Origin: the human T2T-CHM13v2.0 reference genome, Homo sapiens
Strand: one strand, 5' to 3'
DNA: 64,000 bases
Assembly (NCBI RefSeq): GCF_009914755.1
Contig: NC_060931.1
Position 1 is the stretch's first letter; each line of letters begins with the position of its first letter. Both the position numbers and the translations under genes were made by a program. The notes under the pieces are model-generated. The model had not been told where the DNA came from. It ran no database searches and saw only the letters and a list, made by a program, of their open reading frames with translations. Positions 2,669 to 56,720 of the stretch are shown one piece after another.

Positions 2669-4041
2669 CACGTTAGAAGTTATCTGTATTCACCTATATT
2701 TTAAAATAGTTGTTTAAGCTTTAGTTTTTTTTAAATAACAAACCTTTAACTTGTTAATTCATTGTAATTTCTTTTAGTGTATGACATGCAGTTTTTACCT
2801 AATTTAAAATCATTTAAAAATAGTTAACTGATGCTTTGGCATCATTTGGTCTTCACATTTATTTTGATGGCACATTTATTGTATATTAGGTTCTGATATA
2901 TACTAGGGTGTGTTTTTGGCTAAACTGTTCAGTTTCTGTTTACATGTTTTTGATTATTGTAGATGTATAATTTTCCTATGTATTATGGAAAATTCTTTGT
3001 TATACTGTATTTTTAGAATCTTCTTCTTGGGTAGTATAATCCATTTATCTTCTAGATTAACTTAGGATCTCTTTTTTTATTTTACCAGAGTGGGTTTTGA
3101 TTGGCACTGAATTAAAATGATAAATTAATTTGTGGAGAATTTACTTCTGTCTTATCTAAGACAGAATATCTGTACAGTTTTTCAAAACTGCTTTTGTGTC
3201 TCTATGTTTTTACTTTTCTTTGTAAGTGTATTATACTTTACATTGTAAGATTGCTTGTTAGTATTTTATGTTTTGGGCTACAATTATCAATGATGAGCAG
3301 GATTTATCTCCCATTTTCTTTTTTTTTAAGCTGGCTATTGTTAACATGTAAAACTTTATTCTTATGGTCTTATTTTTCATCCAATTATTTTGAAAGTTGT
3401 ATAATTTTTTGTTGGATTCATGTTCATTGCTTTGTTTTGCTCTAATTCTCTGTTTTTAGTAGATATACAATGACTACTAATGTAGGGAATGATAGCCACT
3501 CTTGCCACTAATTTTAGAGAGAATGTGTGTAGTGTCCACAATTGAGATTATTGCTGAATATTGACTTCAGATGTGTCTTATCTGCTATACTTTCCTTTTT
3601 TTTAAAAAAAATCAAGAATTGCTATTGAGTTTTTCCAAATGCTTTCAGGGCTTATTAGCATGATCATGCTGTTTCTCTCTATCAACCTATGTTGATAGAG
3701 TTACTTATTTTGTGTTTATTGAAATTTTATTTTTAACTAAACTTTGAGTTATAATTTATGTAAAATAAAATACATCATTTAAATAAAAACATCACACAAT
3801 TTGATAAATTTTGACAGATGTATTTCTCTGTGAAAGCACAGCTGCAATATATTTCCATCATCCCTAATAGATTCTTTGTGCCCCCCTGTAGAAAATCTGT
3901 CACTTTGCTCCAGGCTCCAGCCAGTCACTGTTTTGTTTTTATCAGTATAGATTAATTTACATTTTCTAGAATTTTATATACATAGAATCAAAGCAACTGT
4001 TATCTCTAGTTTCTTTCACTTAGCAGAATGAGTTTGAGATT

Positions 4042-4661
4042 TGTCTTAGTTCGCTCATGCTGCTATAACAAAATAACTTAGATTGGGTAATTTATAAACA
4101 ACAGAAATTTATTCCTCCCAGTTCCGGAGCCTGGGAAGTCCAAGATCAAGGCACCTGCAGATCTGATGTCTGATAAGGACTGGTTTTCTGCTTCAAAGAT
4201 GGCACCTCGTTGCTGCATCTTCACATGGCATAAGGGGTGAAAGCTTTAAGTTTCTTTGGTAAGAGCACTAATTTCATTCATGAAGGAAGAGCCCTCATGA
4301 CCTAATCACCTCCTAAAGGGCCCACCTCTTAGTACCCCACAATGGAGATGAGGTGTTTTGTTTTGTTTTGTTTTTAATCTTTTAATTTAAAAGTAAACTT
4401 TACTGTGGAAAATGCAAACTTGGGGAGGGCAGAAAGATCACACACAAGGCTGCCTCTTCACACCTGGAGGGTTGCACGGCAGCCGGGCAGAGGCGCTCCG
4501 CACTTCCCAGTGGGGCGGGCCAGGCCGAGAAAGGCGCTGCTCACTTCCCAGATGGTGCGGGGGCTGGGCAGAGGCGCTCCTAACTTCCCAGACAGTGCGG
4601 TGGCCGAGGGGTGAGGTTTAAATATGAATTTTAAAGGGACACAGACATTCGAAGCATAGCA
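4042..4661 (-). mobile_element. MaLR LTR (MLT1A/MST-like), split by SVA2
   Basis: TGTCTTAGTTC...GCTGCTATAACAAAATA...GGGAAGTCCAAGATCAAGG...CCTCATGACCTAATCACC; resumes after 4608 with GAGGTTT...ATGAATTTT...GGGACACAGACATTC. Confidence 0.85.
4355..4607 (-). mobile_element. SVA2 element, 5'-truncated (VNTR + unique 3' end + poly(A))
   Basis: Three ~40-bp GC-rich SVA-type VNTR units (GGGCAGAGGCGCTCC..ACTTCCCAG); on - strand GTGCAACCCTCCAGGTGTGAAG..AGCCTTGTGTGTGATCTTTCTGCCCTCCCCAAGTTTGCATTTTC, ATTAAA signal, A-rich tail; no SINE-R; TGAGGT duplicated at both flanks. Confidence 0.8.
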
Positions 4662-51690: not shown

Positions 51691-51831
51691 GGGGTAGATC
51701 TCTCTCTTTCTCTCTCTCTATTTCTTTCTTTCTTTCCTTTTCCCCTCTTAAGTTCACTTTGCAATGGCCAGGGAGTGATTTCATCCCTTCAATGTGAGAG
51801 ACAACACAAACTTATTTTGAGACAGGAAGGC

Positions 51832-52249
51832 TGTTGGGGTGATCAGACCAAACACCAGGTTGTGGGGGCGATGAAGTCTGGTGGAGTCAAAGGATTGAGA
51901 AAAAGACATTTTGAGAGAGAAAAGTGGGACCAGGGGGCCATCGCAATTGTGGAGGCTGTGAAGGCCCCGAGCTCTGGGAGCCCACGCTATTTATTGGTAG
52001 TCCAGCAGAGAAACAGATGGTGAGAATGTGGAGGTCAAAAAGGGCAGGCACATGATCTACAGCTGTGATGGTTTAGCATTTATAAGGAACATGTTCTGCT
52101 ACTTGAGATAATGGGAATACAATTGATGTAGGAGTCTAGGAGGGCCAGAAGCAAGGAGCCAGCAAGTCTAGACACATTCCAGAGGACATTATGTCAGACA
52201 TGCAAGCCCTGGCTCAGTATTTTTCCCAACACTCAGCTTTTCCCCAACA
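51832..52249 (-). repeat. 3' LTR (LTR14 family-like)
   Basis: Direct repeat of 55678-56104; on - strand TATAAA and AATAAA present; preceded by the PPT. Confidence 0.93.
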
Positions 52250-52268
52250 TGCACCCTTTCTCTTTTTT
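52250..52268 (-). promoter_or_regulatory. Polypurine tract
   Basis: - strand AAAAAAGAGAAAGGGTGCA directly before the 3' LTR TGTTGGGG. Confidence 0.85.
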
Positions 52269-52734
52269 GTAAAAGAGAAGGTATCATTATTACTAGCTAT
52301 CATTATTACTAGCATAAAAGGTGGCCTTTTAATTGAGCAAGGCAATTGCAGGCTGTGCAGCCGTTAATTGCCAGTTGGTGATCCAGATTCATTTTTCTTA
52401 GCCCTTATGCAAACTGGAGTTGCTCTGGTTTGAATGCTTCCCACATACCTCCCCTTTCCCTTTTACAAGAGGACCCTTAATCCTAGGGTTGCAGAAGGAT
52501 GAAGGTCCATCTTCTGTAACTTCTTCATGCTGAATAGAGGTGATGATATTCCTGCCTAACTATTAGGGTCTCCTGTATTCAGGGTAGACAGAAGCTGAGT
52601 CAGAATGCATTGGTCCATTAAGCATCATGACTCCAGTCGGTCCTCGTTCCATCTTTGCATTCAGATTCAACTGGCTCACGGCTTGTACTGGGGGAACCCG
52701 GTCCATAGTTGGGATCCATGGCTCCCTCCAGTCT

Positions 52735-52832
52735 CCCGTTCCATGTCGTACACATCTTGAGGACATCCACATGATTCATTTGTCTCCTGCAAAAACACAA
52801 GCATACCCTCACCCCCACGTTAGTAAATCTAC
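52735..52832 (-). pseudogene. Second integrase C-terminal remnant with env-type splice acceptor
   Basis: VDLLTWG*GYACVFAGD..WMSSRCVR; TACTAAC branch point and TGTGTTTTTGCAG|G. Confidence 0.7.
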
Positions 52833-52980
52833 TGAAACAGAAGCAAAAACTTTTGTGGCTGTAGCCGGGAGGGTACTGATATTGAAAAACAGGCCCCTTC
52901 TAACAGAAGACACAGGAAAACAAATCGAGGCTTTTCAAACCTTCAATTTGTACTGTACAGGTGGGTCCACTAGATGCTGT

Positions 52981-53234
52981 GGCTCATGATAGATCTTCAG
53001 ATGTTTGGTGGGCACCCACACAGGCACCTGATCATCACCTGGAGAGACACAAGCAAATCCTCTTCCACATATAATTATCTTTCCTTTTTTCCAGCTCTTT
53101 GTATGTGACCATATCTTTTTCTAAGGCCTGCGGCATTTAGATGAGTTAAAGAATGTAATGTTTGTGCATCAGCAAAGGTGCAGACACCAAAGCATCTGCC
53201 CTTTGATTAAGTTTAGTTAAAGGACCAAAAGGTC
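52981..53234 (-). pseudogene. pol: pol remnant: RNase H end/integrase N-terminus fused to integrase C-terminus
   Basis: [36 protein letters not shown] then [41 protein letters not shown] (cf. HML-2 [30 protein letters not shown]). Confidence 0.85.
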
Positions 53235-53493
53235 CTGTTGGAGAGAAAAGAAAGAGCATTTTTATCCCTACCTCCCTCCCCTCTATTCCTTTTATATTTG
53301 CTCTTTGAGCCATAGCTAATTTCCGTAATTCAGAATGTTCTTATCTGTCTCTGCAAATCTCTGGTAGTCTTTGCTAGTCTCTACTTTTGTATCTCTTTAG
53401 GGCACTGATCAGTACTTCTCTAGGGCACTGACCTTATATTGCTAGTATTCATCTATCCCTATCTGTCCCTGTGGTACCTGTTAGTTCCTGCAA

Positions 53494-53707
53494 GTCTCTA
53501 TCTCTCTATTTGTCTCTATCTCTCTATTTAAATAATCTCTATCTTTCTATTTATCTCTATCTCTCTATATCTTTATCTCTATCTCTATGTATCTCTATTT
53601 ATATCTATGTCTATTTATCTCTATCTCTCTATCTCCATCTCTATCTCTATCTCTATCCATTTATCTCTATCTCTCTATCTCTATCTATCTCTATCTCCCT
53701 TATCTCT
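53494..53707. repeat. (TCTATC)n-type degenerate hexamer repeat inside the provirus
   Basis: Read directly; purine-rich AGAGAT repeats on the viral strand. Confidence 0.92.
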
Positions 53708-53831
53708 GCTTACTTAGTTCTACTTACTTAGCTCTACTTACTTACTTAGCTCTACTTACTTACTTAGCTCTACTTATTTACTTAACTCTACTTATTTACT
53801 TAACTCTACTTTCTTACTTAGGTCTACTTAC
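53708..53831. repeat. ~18-bp tandem repeat (TACTTAGCTCTACTTACT)n
   Basis: About 7 units; reads YLALLT repeats on + strand and AAGTAAGTAGAGCT on - strand. Confidence 0.92.
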
Positions 53832-53832
53832 T

Positions 53833-54297
53833 TTCCTGGAAACCTTTTTTATGACCCTGGGTAGAGCTCAGAAATCCACTCTTTAAGCTTTGGTAAGAGA
53901 CAAAACAGGGACCCCGGACCCGGCACCAGATTGAAGGAAACAGGAAGTGTTCTCCCCTCCCCAAAACAGGAAAACCAGAGTTTGGCCCTTGCAAATTTCC
54001 ACTCCACATCAGCGTCATCCTCAATTTCCTGGAATGAATTGTTGATCGTAGCAATTAACATATTTAGCAAAACAATGACCGTTGTAACATTATAGACTCC
54101 ATAAAGAACACAACCAATGTTTTCAATGAATTTGTGGTTATAGTTGATGACCACTGATTTTACTTCAGAAAGTCCAAATATAGCCCAGAACAGTGTCTTA
54201 AAACTCTGTTGTGAAGGTTTCATTTTGTTTTACACCAAGGTAGTAGGAGTAGAGGTTGAACATTCCCATCATAAAGGCCACAAACACCACAATGAAC
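53833..54297 (-). pseudogene. TRPC6: Captured, intronless TRPC6 mRNA fragment (S5 end, pore helix LFW, S6, TRP box EWKFAR)
   Basis: [30 protein letters not shown] / [100 protein letters not shown] / QGHKKGFQE matches recalled TRPC6 rather than TRPC3/7 in the C-terminal part; two frameshifts. Confidence 0.93.
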
Positions 54298-54394
54298 ACA
54301 TTCAGCGCATATCATGCCTGTGTGCTCATTAAATCTGTTTTTCTCTAGCAGAGGCAGGTTAACCATGAAACTGAAGCTTCAAGATAACTTTACT

Positions 54395-54484
54395 TGCCCT
54401 ATGAAAAGCAGCCCATGATTTATTTTTTCTGGGGACTACTGCCAACCAGGCCTGTGTGTCAATCTGTAAGCATCCAACAGCAGG
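54395..54484 (-). pseudogene. Possible env SU remnant
   Basis: PAVGCLQIDTQAWLAVVP resembles HML-2 Env APGCLMPAVQNWLVEVP. Confidence 0.5.
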
Positions 54485-54935
54485 TCTACTGTACAAATAG
54501 GTCTTTTGTCAAACACTTATTAACCCAATATACAGCCCTTCCTGTTGGATTAGTACTACCAAAGCCTCCTGTTCTTTTCACAGTGCTGCTTCCCAGCTTT
54601 ATGTCAACAACTGAGCAATTCTTTCTCCTAGGGAAGCAGACCATGGAGTAGAGGAACTAATAATGAATTGAATTTCTCCGGTATAATCAGAGTCAATTAT
54701 TTCCATATGTACAGTGACACCTTTCAAATTTAGACTACACCTTCCTAGTAATAGACCAACTGTTCCTGAGGGTAAGGGTCCCCTGACTCCCATAGGGACC
54801 GTTTTTGGTGGCTCCCCAGGAAGTAAGGGTATGGGAATTGTGTGCAAAAGTCTACAGCAACACTGCCTGCTGTGGTGGGGGACAATTGTTGTACGTTTGT
54901 AAGGGCACTGGCTGTGCCAGAAATGCCTGAGTTTA
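54485..54935 (-). pseudogene. pro: dUTPase-pro N-terminal remnant
   Basis: VQQLSPTTAGSVAVD..LLPGEPPKTVPMGVRGPLPSGTVGLLLGR.SLNLKGVTVH..IIDSDYTGEIQ..RTGGFGSTNP..AVYWVN. Confidence 0.9.
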
Positions 54936-54984
54936 TTGAGGTGCTCTCTGAATAAACAAGCCTCAGATTCCACTGGGTCTTAGT

Positions 54985-55528
54985 ACTACCAATTGCTCCA
55001 GGTTTTAATGTTGTAACTACAGGAGTGGTAAGTTTTGTAGCTAATTCATTTTCTCGCCCATTAAGGGGAGAGAGAGGAGGTGGCCATTCACTTAATCCAG
55101 CAGTTGGAGCTGAGGGGATAGTAAAACATACTTTTTTGTTTCCCTTTTTTTTCTTTAATTTCCTCCAGTTTCTGTTCCTCACATTCAGAATCTGAAGTTA
55201 GTTTTTTACACTTGTCCTCCACTTCCTCATCTGAATCTGCCTCATCATCTGTTTGAAATGGCTCAAGAGCTGCTTTTATTAGCGCCCACATGGACCAAAC
55301 TGAGACTGGAATTTTTGCTCCATCCTTATATGCTTTTTAAAAATCTCTGCCAATTCTCTCCCATTCATCCAACTCCATAGTCCCTTGTTCTGGGAACCAT
55401 GGGCAAAACTGCTTTACTGCACTAAAGAGTGATAACAAATTCTGAGTACTAACTTTCACTCCCCTTATTCGTAATAAATGCCTTAAGAAATTTAAATAAG
55501 CAGAATGTCTGCTTTCACTTTGTCCCAT
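54985..55528 (-). pseudogene. gag: gag matrix/phosphoprotein remnant (CA and NC deleted)
   Basis: MGQSESRHSAYLNFLRHLLRIRGVKVSTQNL..FCPWFPEQGTMELDEW.RIG; WALIKAALEPFQTDDE; PSAP late-domain motif. Confidence 0.92.
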
Positions 55529-55655
55529 TGTTACCCTGGTTCTTCTGAGAGCTCATCTTTCCCGCTGAGCTTCTTTTAGATGTCCTTGGGTGTCCTTTGA
55601 TGAAGGATCCTCTGCTTTCACACGCTCTAGTGTTCCTTTACTGGGGTCTTTGTCT

Positions 55656-55673
55656 CCTCACTTTGGGCGGCCA
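55656..55673 (-). promoter_or_regulatory. Primer-binding site, tRNA-Lys type
   Basis: TGGCCGCCCAAAGTGAGG versus HERV-K PBS TGGCGCCCAACGTGGGG, 4 nt after the 5' LTR. Confidence 0.8.
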
Positions 55674-55677
55674 GGAA

Positions 55678-56104
55678 TGTTGGGGTGATCAGACCCAACA
55701 CCAGGTCGTGGGGGTGACAAAGTCTAGTGGAGTCAAAGGATTGAGAAAAAGACAGTTTGAAAAAGAAAAGTGGGACCAGGGGGCCATTGCGATTGTGGAG
55801 GCTGTGAAGGCCCTGAGCTCTGGGAGCCTACACTATTTATTGGTAATCCAACAGAGAAACAAGTGATGAGAATGTGGAGGTCAAAAGGGCAGGCACATGA
55901 TCTACAGCTGTGATGGTTTAGCATTTATAAGGAACATGTTCTGCTACTTGAGATAATGGAGAGCAGGTTCTTTTAACCCAAGATACAATTGATCCTGGGA
56001 GAGCAAGGAACAAGGAGCTAGCAAGTCTAGACACATTCAGAGGACATGTCAGACATACAAGCCCTGCCTCAGTATTTTTCCCAACACTCAGCTTTTTCCC
56101 AACA
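55678..56104 (-). repeat. 5' LTR (LTR14 family-like)
   Basis: - strand starts TGTTGGGAAAAAGCTGAGTGTTGGGAAAAATACTGAGG; followed by PBS. Confidence 0.93.
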
Positions 56105-56720
56105 GAAGGCCATGGATCAATGGAACAATGATCTATATATGGCACAGGCTTGACATTTCTCATGTTTTTAAGGGGCAGCAATTCTCATTGCTAAGTAACC
56201 TGTAATTGTGCTCATTGGCTTTTTCTACCATTTTCTGTTGAAAATAAGGCAAATACTTCCACCTTAGGAAAGTGGTGAAACAGCTAGGTTAAATAGATTT
56301 TCTAAGTTGAAACAGTGTCTTAATGGCTTCAATATTTGGGAAATGCTCTGTTAAATAGTTGTAATTAATATAAGACTTCCCAGAGTCTTTGAGATGTCAA
56401 TGTGAACATCAAAGATGCTTTAAGAAGGGATTAGGGCATGCAACATTTCCTAAACTTATTTGATCAAGAATTTCTTTTCTTTTTATTTAATCCTCAGGAT
56501 CTCCTGTGGACCTGACCTAGTGGAGAAATACAAAGCTTTTATTTCCATTAGCCAGTAGCAGGTGAGGAGTCAGGACTAATATTCCTGCCTGAGTCAGCTG
56601 AGATTACACATTTAATAAACACTTATGGTGCAATGACAATATAGTTTTCAATAAAACTCTGTTCTTAATAAAACCATAATTATTCACGAGTTTGTGATTA
56701 CTAACATTTATATAGATTTT

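What the first reader, a model, noticed from the sequence alone, without database searches (positions are those of the whole stretch)
51832..56104. Retroviral transduction of a host ion-channel mRNA: HERV-K14-like provirus carrying the TRPC6 pore region
Seen: a complete provirus shell (LTRs, PBS, PPT, GAAGGC TSD) in which most viral genes are replaced by a sense-oriented, intronless TRPC6 fragment with no poly(A) or TSD of its own. It was therefore carried in the viral RNA rather than inserted by L1, like oncogene capture by acute transforming retroviruses. Established, from memory: HERV-K14I proviruses with TRPC6 mRNA portions were reported by Flockerzi et al. 2005 (J Virol), so the class is known; the internal details listed in the following findings may not be.
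Basis: partly seen in the sequence, partly recalled or inferred. Interest (0 to 1): 0.8.

Follow-up and report, generated by a model that had tools for sequence, protein, structure and literature searches.

The report
Old provirus carrying spliced TRPC6 exons
This is a dead, roughly 20-40 million year old HERV-K14I (HML-1) provirus that carries a spliced piece of the host TRPC6 ion-channel transcript, one of about 13 copies descended from a single ancient capture, a class of element that is already in print.

Summary
On the minus strand lie two LTRs (56104-55678 and 52249-51832), a 6-bp target duplication (GAAGGC), a PBS, a PPT, and remnants of gag MA, dUTPase and integrase. A sense-oriented TRPC6 piece sits inside, with exact exon-exon joints and no poly(A) or duplication of its own.

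Retroviral transduction is supported:
- 12 of 12 copies that cover the TRPC6 3' end share one junction.
- At least five copies have their own distinct 5-6 bp target duplications.
- The parent gene on chr11 has the same exons separated by introns.

Corrections and additions:
- The TRPC6 part runs from about 53826 to 54399, not 53833-54297. Its 5' end is 83 nt of a cryptic exon from inside a TRPC6 intron, spliced exactly to the next exon.
- A second 43-nt scar of that intron lies at 54940-54982.
- A roughly 490-nt block (53341-~53825) comes from another ERV family.
- Viral gene loss is due to about ten separate breakpoints, not to replacement by TRPC6.
- Two structural types exist. The window copy belongs to the derived type.

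The class was reported by Flockerzi et al. 2005. I could not read that paper, so I cannot say whether these details are new. Interest is moderate.

The parts
51826..51831 (.). target-site duplication GAAGGC (3' side of the provirus)
   Evidence: identical hexamer at 56105-56110
51832..52249 (-). 3' LTR (418 nt)
52254..52268 (-). polypurine tract, 4 nt from the 3' LTR
   Evidence: read by eye
52269..52937 (-). 3' internal viral region. Shared with sister copies and with L055/L056. No Pfam hit.
52938..53120 (-). integrase C-terminal DNA-binding domain remnant; the catalytic core is deleted
   Evidence: PF00552, E = 6.8e-06
53078..53265 (-). end of RNase H plus the integrase zinc-binding domain start
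   Evidence: PF02022, E = 1e-05. The RNase H end was read by eye against L052.
53266..53340 (-). env SU piece f. In a canonical copy it lies about 380 nt after the 87-nt env piece. Here it is followed by a jump back to RNase H.
53341..53825 (-). block R: fragment of the leader of another ERV family, with tandem arrays at 53495-53697 and 53721-53833
53826..54019 (-). TRPC6 exon 'E' part. It ends mid-exon, 7 nt before the donor. All copies share a +1 frameshift.
54020..54207 (-). TRPC6 exon 'D'; it lacks its first 8 nt in the window's type
54208..54296 (-). last 89 nt of TRPC6 exon 'C'
54297..54316 (-). first 20 nt of TRPC6 exon 'B' (residues from 505 on in the gene); an internal deletion follows
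54317..54399 (-). 83 nt of a cryptic exon from inside a TRPC6 intron (C11:101488614-101488696), spliced exactly to exon B
54400..54486 (-). 87 nt of env SU, brought next to dUTPase by a deletion of about 3.7 kb
54487..54945 (-). pro N-terminal region with dUTPase
   Evidence: PF00692, E = 8.9e-13
54940..54982 (-). 43-nt scar of the same TRPC6 intron (C11:101488740-101488782), lying between gag and pro
   Evidence: 95% over 43 nt; absent from 4 of 4 canonical copies that cover the place
54983..55528 (-). gag matrix (p10) remnant, ATG at 55528-55526; capsid and nucleocapsid are deleted
   Evidence: PF02337, E = 5.7e-20
55656..55673 (-). primer-binding site (Lys type by recall)
55678..56104 (-). 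5' LTR (427 nt)
56105..56110 (.). target-site duplication GAAGGC (5' side of the provirus)

Best explanation
The element is a fossil, replication-dead HERV-K14I (HML-1) provirus on the minus strand. It descends from one ancient retroviral transduction of a TRPC6 transcript.

Shown:
- All TRPC6-bearing copies share one 3' junction. TRPC6 stops mid-exon and joins the tandem repeats of block R at a 6-nt microhomology (AGAGAT).
- In the less rearranged type (II), gag nt ~70 is joined to 185 nt of a TRPC6 intron. That stretch ends at a GT donor and is spliced exactly to four consecutive coding exons (residues 505 to about 800).
- The window's type (I) keeps only parts of this. It has extra viral segments and a 43-nt intron scar, so it is a later recombinant.
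- The copies sit at different sites, each with its own target duplication.

Inferred:
- A provirus lying in sense orientation in that TRPC6 intron lost its 3' part.
- Transcripts from its LTR then ran into the intron, used the first usable donor and spliced to the downstream exons.
- This chimeric RNA was packaged with a helper genome. Reverse transcriptase switched templates at the microhomology and so supplied the 3' viral end. This is the classical oncogene-capture route (Swain and Coffin, recalled).
- Further template switches and deletions made type I.
- The defective genome was spread in trans by helper proteins roughly 20-40 million years ago.
- Nothing suggests a present function.
For: - Provirus shell and domains.
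- Exon-by-exon match to the chr11 gene, with introns absent from the insert.
- Exact splice joints, and the GT donor after the cryptic exon.
- The cryptic exon lies 2.37 kb upstream of exon B, inside the roughly 6.4 kb intron.
- The 3' junction is shared by 12 of 12 copies that cover it (L033 gave no hit).
- Type I junctions are shared 7 of 7. The type II 5' junction is shared 5 of 5.
- Eleven changes, including a +1 frameshift, are shared by at least 10 of the 11 full-length copies compared against the gene.
- Type I forms one group in the tree, with weak support (70/87) and star-like short inner branches.
- Distinct target duplications: window GCCTTC, L025 GGTAGG, L024 AGAAAA, L021 TCTGCC, L020 GTTTT.
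- LTR-LTR K2P distances of 0.058-0.126 in 10 proviruses. HML-1 is dated at about 39 million years in Table 1 of PMC3778440 (passage seen).
- The 43-60 nt between gag and pro is host intron, not virus. Four of 4 canonical copies that cover the place carry a different sequence there. Canonical matches begin only at query 40-45.
Against: - The DNA-fusion step is inference. No HERV-K14I LTR or other proviral remnant is left in the 19.8 kb of the TRPC6 gene that I examined.
- I saw no splice acceptor at the 5' end of the 185 nt. The junction could therefore equally have formed on a pre-mRNA or on an alternative transcript.
- The order of events is not resolved: R insertion, TRPC6 capture, the env-to-RNase H jump, and type I versus type II.
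- Tree support for type I is weak, and type II is not one group.
- Target duplications were unclear or untestable for 8 of 13 loci: L022, L023, L026 and L028 were ambiguous, and L027, L029, L030 and L033 lacked one LTR in the stretch I held.
- Ages rest on recalled substitution rates.
Confidence: 0.85

Rival explanations
1. Same single transduction, but no provirus ever sat in TRPC6. A TRPC6 pre-mRNA or alternative transcript containing the cryptic exon was co-packaged by chance. Both junctions were then made by reverse-transcriptase template switching.
For: - Both ancestral junctions show short similarity: AGAGAT at the 3' junction, and an imperfect GA.GGG.GAG stretch at gag|intron.
- No proviral remnant is present in the 19.8 kb of the gene examined.
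- Later junctions in the same lineage are plainly of this kind, for example a 7-nt overlap at scar|pro.
Against: An ordinary TRPC6 transcript would splice the upstream coding exon straight to exon B and remove this stretch. Intron sequence followed by use of the first donor is what a read-in from an upstream promoter predicts. No evidence was available here that the cryptic exon is used in normal TRPC6 RNA.
Confidence: 0.3
2. An L1-made processed TRPC6 pseudogene landed inside a resident provirus, which was then copied.
For: The insert is intronless between coding exons. L1 copies are often 5'-truncated.
Against: - There is no poly(A) and no flanking duplication.
- The 3' end lies mid-exon, and the downstream TRPC6 coding exons and 3' end are absent.
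- The 5' end is intron sequence joined to gag nt ~70.
- The copies carry retroviral 5-6 bp duplications and LTR pairs.
Confidence: 0.03
3. The many copies arose by segmental duplication or gene conversion of one locus, not by retroviral spread.
For: The two PAR2 copies differ by under 2% in the 480-nt TRPC6 part.
Against: The flanks and target duplications differ at every locus where both ends were readable, including the two PAR2 copies. The loci lie on eight chromosomes (4, 5, 7, 9, 11, 12, 18 and X; the two PAR2 copies are also on Y).
Confidence: 0.02

Closest known systems
HERV-K14I proviruses with TRPC6 mRNA portions (Flockerzi et al. 2005, J Virol 79:2941; title seen in reference lists; abstract recalled; text not held)
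   Same: Same family, same host gene, same idea of mobilisation inside the viral genome. This locus is annotated as TRPC6P8.
   Different: Nothing is known to differ. I cannot tell whether the following are in that paper: the intron-derived cryptic exon, the 43-60 nt intron scars, the two structural types, the junction microhomologies and the foreign ERV block.
Oncogene capture by acutely transforming retroviruses (read-in or deletion fusion, splicing, co-packaging, non-homologous 3' recombination; Swain and Coffin 1992, recalled)
   Same: - Sense orientation and spliced host exons.
- Host sequence joined early in gag, with LTR, PBS and leader kept.
- A 3' junction at a few bases of similarity.
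- A defective genome spread by helper functions.
   Different: - This is a germ-line fossil, not a tumour virus.
- There is no gag fusion: the gag frame stops 19-22 codons in.
- There is no sign that the captured part was selected. The private changes of the PAR2 copies are mostly non-synonymous (by eye).
L1-mediated processed pseudogenes
   Same: Intronless copy of a host mRNA.
   Different: No poly(A), no long target duplication and no mRNA 3' end. The insert is flanked by viral sequence and moved as part of an LTR element.
Recombinant ERVs that replace viral genes by another retroelement and still spread (recKoRV; PMC6112702, abstract seen)
   Same: Block R is a piece of another ERV family recombined into the genome, and the recombinant made progeny.
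   Different: Here a host gene transcript was taken up as well.

Membership tests
HERV-K14I / HML-1 provirus | paired LTRs with TG...CA ends and a 5-6 bp target duplication | tested here: met
HERV-K14I / HML-1 provirus | DNA homology of the internal region to many other genomic HERV-K14I copies | tested here: met
33-34 further loci per search at 81-92% identity among the 40 candidates scored.
HERV-K14I / HML-1 provirus | betaretroviral gene set: gag p10, dUTPase in pro, integrase | tested here: met
   All are fragments. Protease, RT and the integrase core are absent.
HERV-K14I / HML-1 provirus | tRNA-Lys primer-binding site | tested here: inconclusive
   An 18-mer sits at 55656-55673, and sister L025 starts TGGCGCCC. 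The comparison with tRNA-Lys is from recall only.
Retrovirally transduced host sequence | host exons in sense, spliced, lying inside the LTR-bounded unit | tested here: met
Retrovirally transduced host sequence | the same virus/host junctions in progeny that integrated independently | tested here: met
   12 of 12; 7 of 7; 5 of 5. Distinct target duplications in 5 proviruses.
Retrovirally transduced host sequence | single origin from the parent gene | tested here: met
   11 changes shared by nearly all copies against the gene; tree
Retrovirally transduced host sequence | progenitor provirus at the host locus | tested here: not met
   No LTR or other proviral remnant in C11:101476000-101495800. 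This is expected if the fusion allele was never fixed, so it does not exclude the model.
L1 processed pseudogene | poly(A) tail, the mRNA 3' end and a 7-20 bp target duplication | tested here: not met

The most novel reading that the evidence does not exclude
The fine anatomy may be unreported, and it gives a nearly complete fossil record of a germ-line transduction.
- A read-in from a provirus into a TRPC6 intron.
- Use of a cryptic donor 185 nt further on.
- A 3' template switch at AGAGAT into a foreign ERV block.
- Later back-recombination with helper genomes. This left 43-60 nt TRPC6-intron scars in the window copy, and in a provirus (C19:20.85 Mb) that no longer carries any TRPC6 exon.

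Bolder still: the ancestral genome encoded a truncated pore fragment. It would have 17 residues from the cryptic exon plus TRPC6 505 to about 787. This frame is still open over 304 codons in the PAR2 copies. Expression of that fragment might have helped this defective lineage to make about 13 of the roughly 68 known HML-1 proviruses.
Probability: 0.35. Interest if true: 0.55.

Novelty: already known. Interest (0 to 1): 0.4.

Why it matters
Natural capture of a host gene by a retrovirus in the germ line is rare, and this is the textbook human case. The locus shows how such a genome is built and then rebuilt by template switching. It also shows that gene annotation (TRPC6P8) covers only part of the host-derived sequence. 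Short host 'scars' can mark proviruses that descend from a transducing genome. It has no evident bearing on present TRPC6 function.

Tried and rejected
1. I first read 54300-54490 as protease (a 'DTQA' motif seen by eye). Searches showed it to be 87 nt of env SU plus TRPC6 cryptic exon.

2. I thought the bases after the TRPC6 end (AGTAAGTAG) were retained intron. The gene shows that the exon continues for 18 more nt, and the bases belong to block R.

3. I took the 60 nt at C11:101488740-101488799 for a relic of a provirus inside TRPC6, marking the capture site. I rejected this because canonical copies lack the stretch. It is host intron that some proviruses carry.

4. I considered HERV-W as the source of block R, from the recalled abstract. 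The related loci have a Lys3-like PBS (by recall) and a betaretrovirus-type zinc-knuckle gag. The family name stays open, because no repeat library was on hand.

5. Flockerzi 2005 could not be opened by DOI, PMC id or PubMed id.

6. Five full-text searches linking TRPC6 with HERV-K14, HML-1, LTR14, provirus or HERV found no paper that describes these proviruses. I looked into two of the hits, PMC3088655 and PMC12922068, and both were unrelated.

8. In one search my spliced host reference lacked 2 nt (AG) at the start of exon D. As a result the 'type II insertion' and the '6-nt deletion' in that output are artefacts. Read, type II equals the gene at that point and type I lacks 8 nt.
Full report
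**Observation**

The window holds a 4.27-kb LTR-bounded unit on the minus strand.
- The two LTRs are 55678-56104 and 51832-52249. Direct-repeat families D2-D5 are 86-100% identical, and a global alignment gives 47 mismatches in 413 columns.
- Both LTRs run TG...CA. The hexamer GAAGGC flanks the unit on both sides, at 51826-51831 and 56105-56110.
- An 18-nt PBS-like site follows the 5' LTR after 4 nt (55673-55656). A purine run (52254-52268) precedes the 3' LTR.
- Pfam finds Gag_p10 (E = 5.7e-20), dUTPase (8.9e-13), Integrase_Zn (1e-05) and IN_DBD_C (6.8e-06), all on the minus strand. Between dUTPase and integrase it finds Ion_trans.

**The TRPC6 part**

- The 460 nt annotated as TRPC6P8 match three exons of the gene on C11 back to back, at 90-95% identity. 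In the gene these exons are separated by introns.
- The translation aligns with residues 672-790 of human TRPC6 (PDB 5yx9, E = 3.5e-63). By recall this region is the pore, S6 and the TRP helix.
- The host-derived part is longer than annotated. Positions 54317-54399 match C11:101488614-101488696 at 96%.
- That stretch lies inside the roughly 6.4 kb intron between the exon ending ...SWVIG and the next exon, 2.37 kb upstream of the latter.
- In the gene the stretch ends at CAG|GT. In the provirus it is joined exactly to the first 20 nt of the next exon (54297-54316). It is therefore a spliced cryptic exon.
- An internal deletion then leads to the last 89 nt of the following exon.
- The TRPC6 homology ends mid-exon, 7 nt before the donor. 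There is no poly(A).

**Sister copies**

The assembly holds 13 loci with TRPC6 exon sequence inside HERV-K14I context, counting PAR2 once for X and Y. They fall into two types.
- Type I, 7 loci: the window, C9:113.30M, C11:121.26M, C5:23.80M, C5:24.85M, C4:188.25M and C7:30.68M.
- Type II, 5 loci: two in PAR2, C5:146.26M, C7:151.79M and C12:46.86M.
- One fragment lies on C18.

The junction evidence is as follows.
- All 12 copies that cover the TRPC6 3' end share one junction. The exon sequence ...GCAGAGAT runs into the tandem repeats of block R, with AGAGAT common to both partners. L033 is truncated and gave no hit.
- At least 10 of the 11 full-length copies compared share 11 differences from the gene, including a +1 frameshift.
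- Type II joins gag nt ~70 to 185 nt of the intron (C11:101488799-101488615). It then carries four complete or nearly complete exons, about 1.07 kb in all. This 5' junction is the same in 5 of 5 copies.
- Type I has its own junctions, shared in 7 of 7 copies.

**Spread**

- Perfect and mutually different target duplications flank the window copy (GCCTTC in sense), L025 (GGTAGG), L024 (AGAAAA), L021 (TCTGCC) and L020 (GTTTT).
- The other eight loci were ambiguous or lacked one LTR in the stretch I held.
- LTR-LTR K2P distances are 0.058-0.126 in 10 proviruses.
- With recalled rates of 0.13-0.21% per million years, this gives about 14-48 million years. That is in line with the roughly 39 million years listed for HML-1 (PMC3778440, Table 1).
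- The TRPC6 parts differ from the gene by 4.8-8.5%. The tree is star-like.

**Anatomy of the window copy, in sense order**

1. 5' LTR, PBS and leader.
2. gag MA, to 54983.
3. A 43-nt scar of the TRPC6 intron, 54982-54940.
4. pro/dUTPase, to 54487.
5. 87 nt of env SU, 54486-54400. In canonical copies this piece lies about 3.7-4.2 kb further on.
6. The TRPC6 part, 54399-~53826.
7. Block R, ~53825-53341.
8. An env SU piece, 53340-53266. In the canonical copy it lies about 380 nt after the 87-nt piece.
9. A jump back to the end of RNase H, then the integrase Zn domain, a deletion of the core, the integrase C-terminus, a 3' region, the PPT and the 3' LTR.

This makes about ten non-homologous joints. 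Several have a few bases of overlap, for example about 7 nt at scar|pro.

**The scar**

The 43 nt at 54940-54982 match the TRPC6 intron at 95%. I first took the matching 60 nt in the gene for a proviral relic. The evidence went the other way.
- Four of 4 canonical HERV-K14I copies that cover the place have an unrelated sequence there (L041 gave no hit).
- In one search the canonical matches start only at query 40-45.
- So the stretch is host intron.

The window copy thus carries TRPC6-derived sequence in two places. A provirus on C19 (L055) carries a 60-nt scar but no TRPC6 exon. Both are best read as products of recombination between the transducing genome and helper genomes.

**Block R**

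- Its tandem arrays and its 160-nt unique part recur at 75-83% identity at many loci.
- Two of these loci, L053 and L054, are 81% alike over about 930 nt.
- L054 shows an LTR end and a Lys3-like PBS (by recall), followed by the same repeats. L053 continues into a gag with a zf-CCHC_5 knuckle.
- R is therefore a leader fragment of another ERV family.
- The R|env joint is shared by both types and by L055 and L056.

**Mechanism**

- Shown: a single origin, an RNA intermediate with splicing, junction microhomology and spread by integration.
- Inferred: the route into the virus. Intron sequence followed by use of the next donor is what a transcript reading in from an upstream proviral LTR would give, so I favour the classical deletion/read-in model. 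A co-packaged TRPC6 pre-mRNA remains possible.
- No proviral remnant is left in the 19.8 kb of the gene that I examined.

**Coding**

- In type II the gag frame stops 19-22 codons after the ATG, so there is no gag fusion.
- The cryptic exon offers an ATG in frame with TRPC6 residue 505 onwards.
- This frame is still open for 304 codons in the two PAR2 copies, but not in the others.
- The private changes of the PAR2 copies are mostly non-synonymous (by eye), so I see chance rather than constraint.
- In the window copy the frame is broken by the internal deletion and by the 8-nt loss.

**Novelty**

- The class is in print: Flockerzi et al. 2005. I saw the title in two reference lists. The abstract is recalled and the text could not be opened.
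- Five full-text searches found no other description.
- I cannot say whether the details above are new.

Noticed in passing
L020 and L021 (C23:154025200-154035100 and C23:154208600-154218500; the same loci on C24): The two PAR2 copies keep a 304-codon open frame running from the cryptic-exon ATG through TRPC6 residue 505 to about 787. They differ by under 2% in the TRPC6 part, yet have different target duplications. Gene conversion, or a late copy of one from the other, is possible.
   Followed up: partly
L055 (C19:20847300-20851300, minus): An HERV-K14I provirus without TRPC6 exons. It has a 60-nt TRPC6-intron scar between gag nt ~70 and pro, and carries block R in env.
   Followed up: partly
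window 53341-53833; L053, L054: Block R comes from the leader of another ERV family that has its own tandem repeats. The family was not named, for want of a repeat library.
   Followed up: partly
window 53840-54299 versus 54297-54399 and 54940-54982: The RefSeq pseudogene TRPC6P8 covers only 460 nt. It misses 103 nt of contiguous TRPC6-derived sequence and the separate 43-nt scar.
   Followed up: yes
LTRs of the window copy and of L020-L028, L055: The LTRs come in a short form (about 410-430 nt: window, L023, L025) and a long form (about 540-640 nt: L022, L024, type II, L055). They differ by a block of roughly 170 nt after the first 60 nt.
   Followed up: no
TRPC6 part of all copies: Four of the 10 substitutions shared by nearly all copies against the gene are A>G. 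The sample is too small to argue for RNA editing.
   Followed up: no
L052 (C1:224980500-224986500, minus), about 3450-4460: This canonical copy has a foreign insertion of about 1.3 kb in RT, with Alu-like parts (matched to an Alu in the TRPC6 intron) and a short ORF that resembles the end of another HERV-K env (by recall).
   Followed up: no
C5:136753883-136754069: A 75% match to the middle TRPC6 exon. Probably the paralogue TRPC7 (by recall), not a proviral copy.
   Followed up: no
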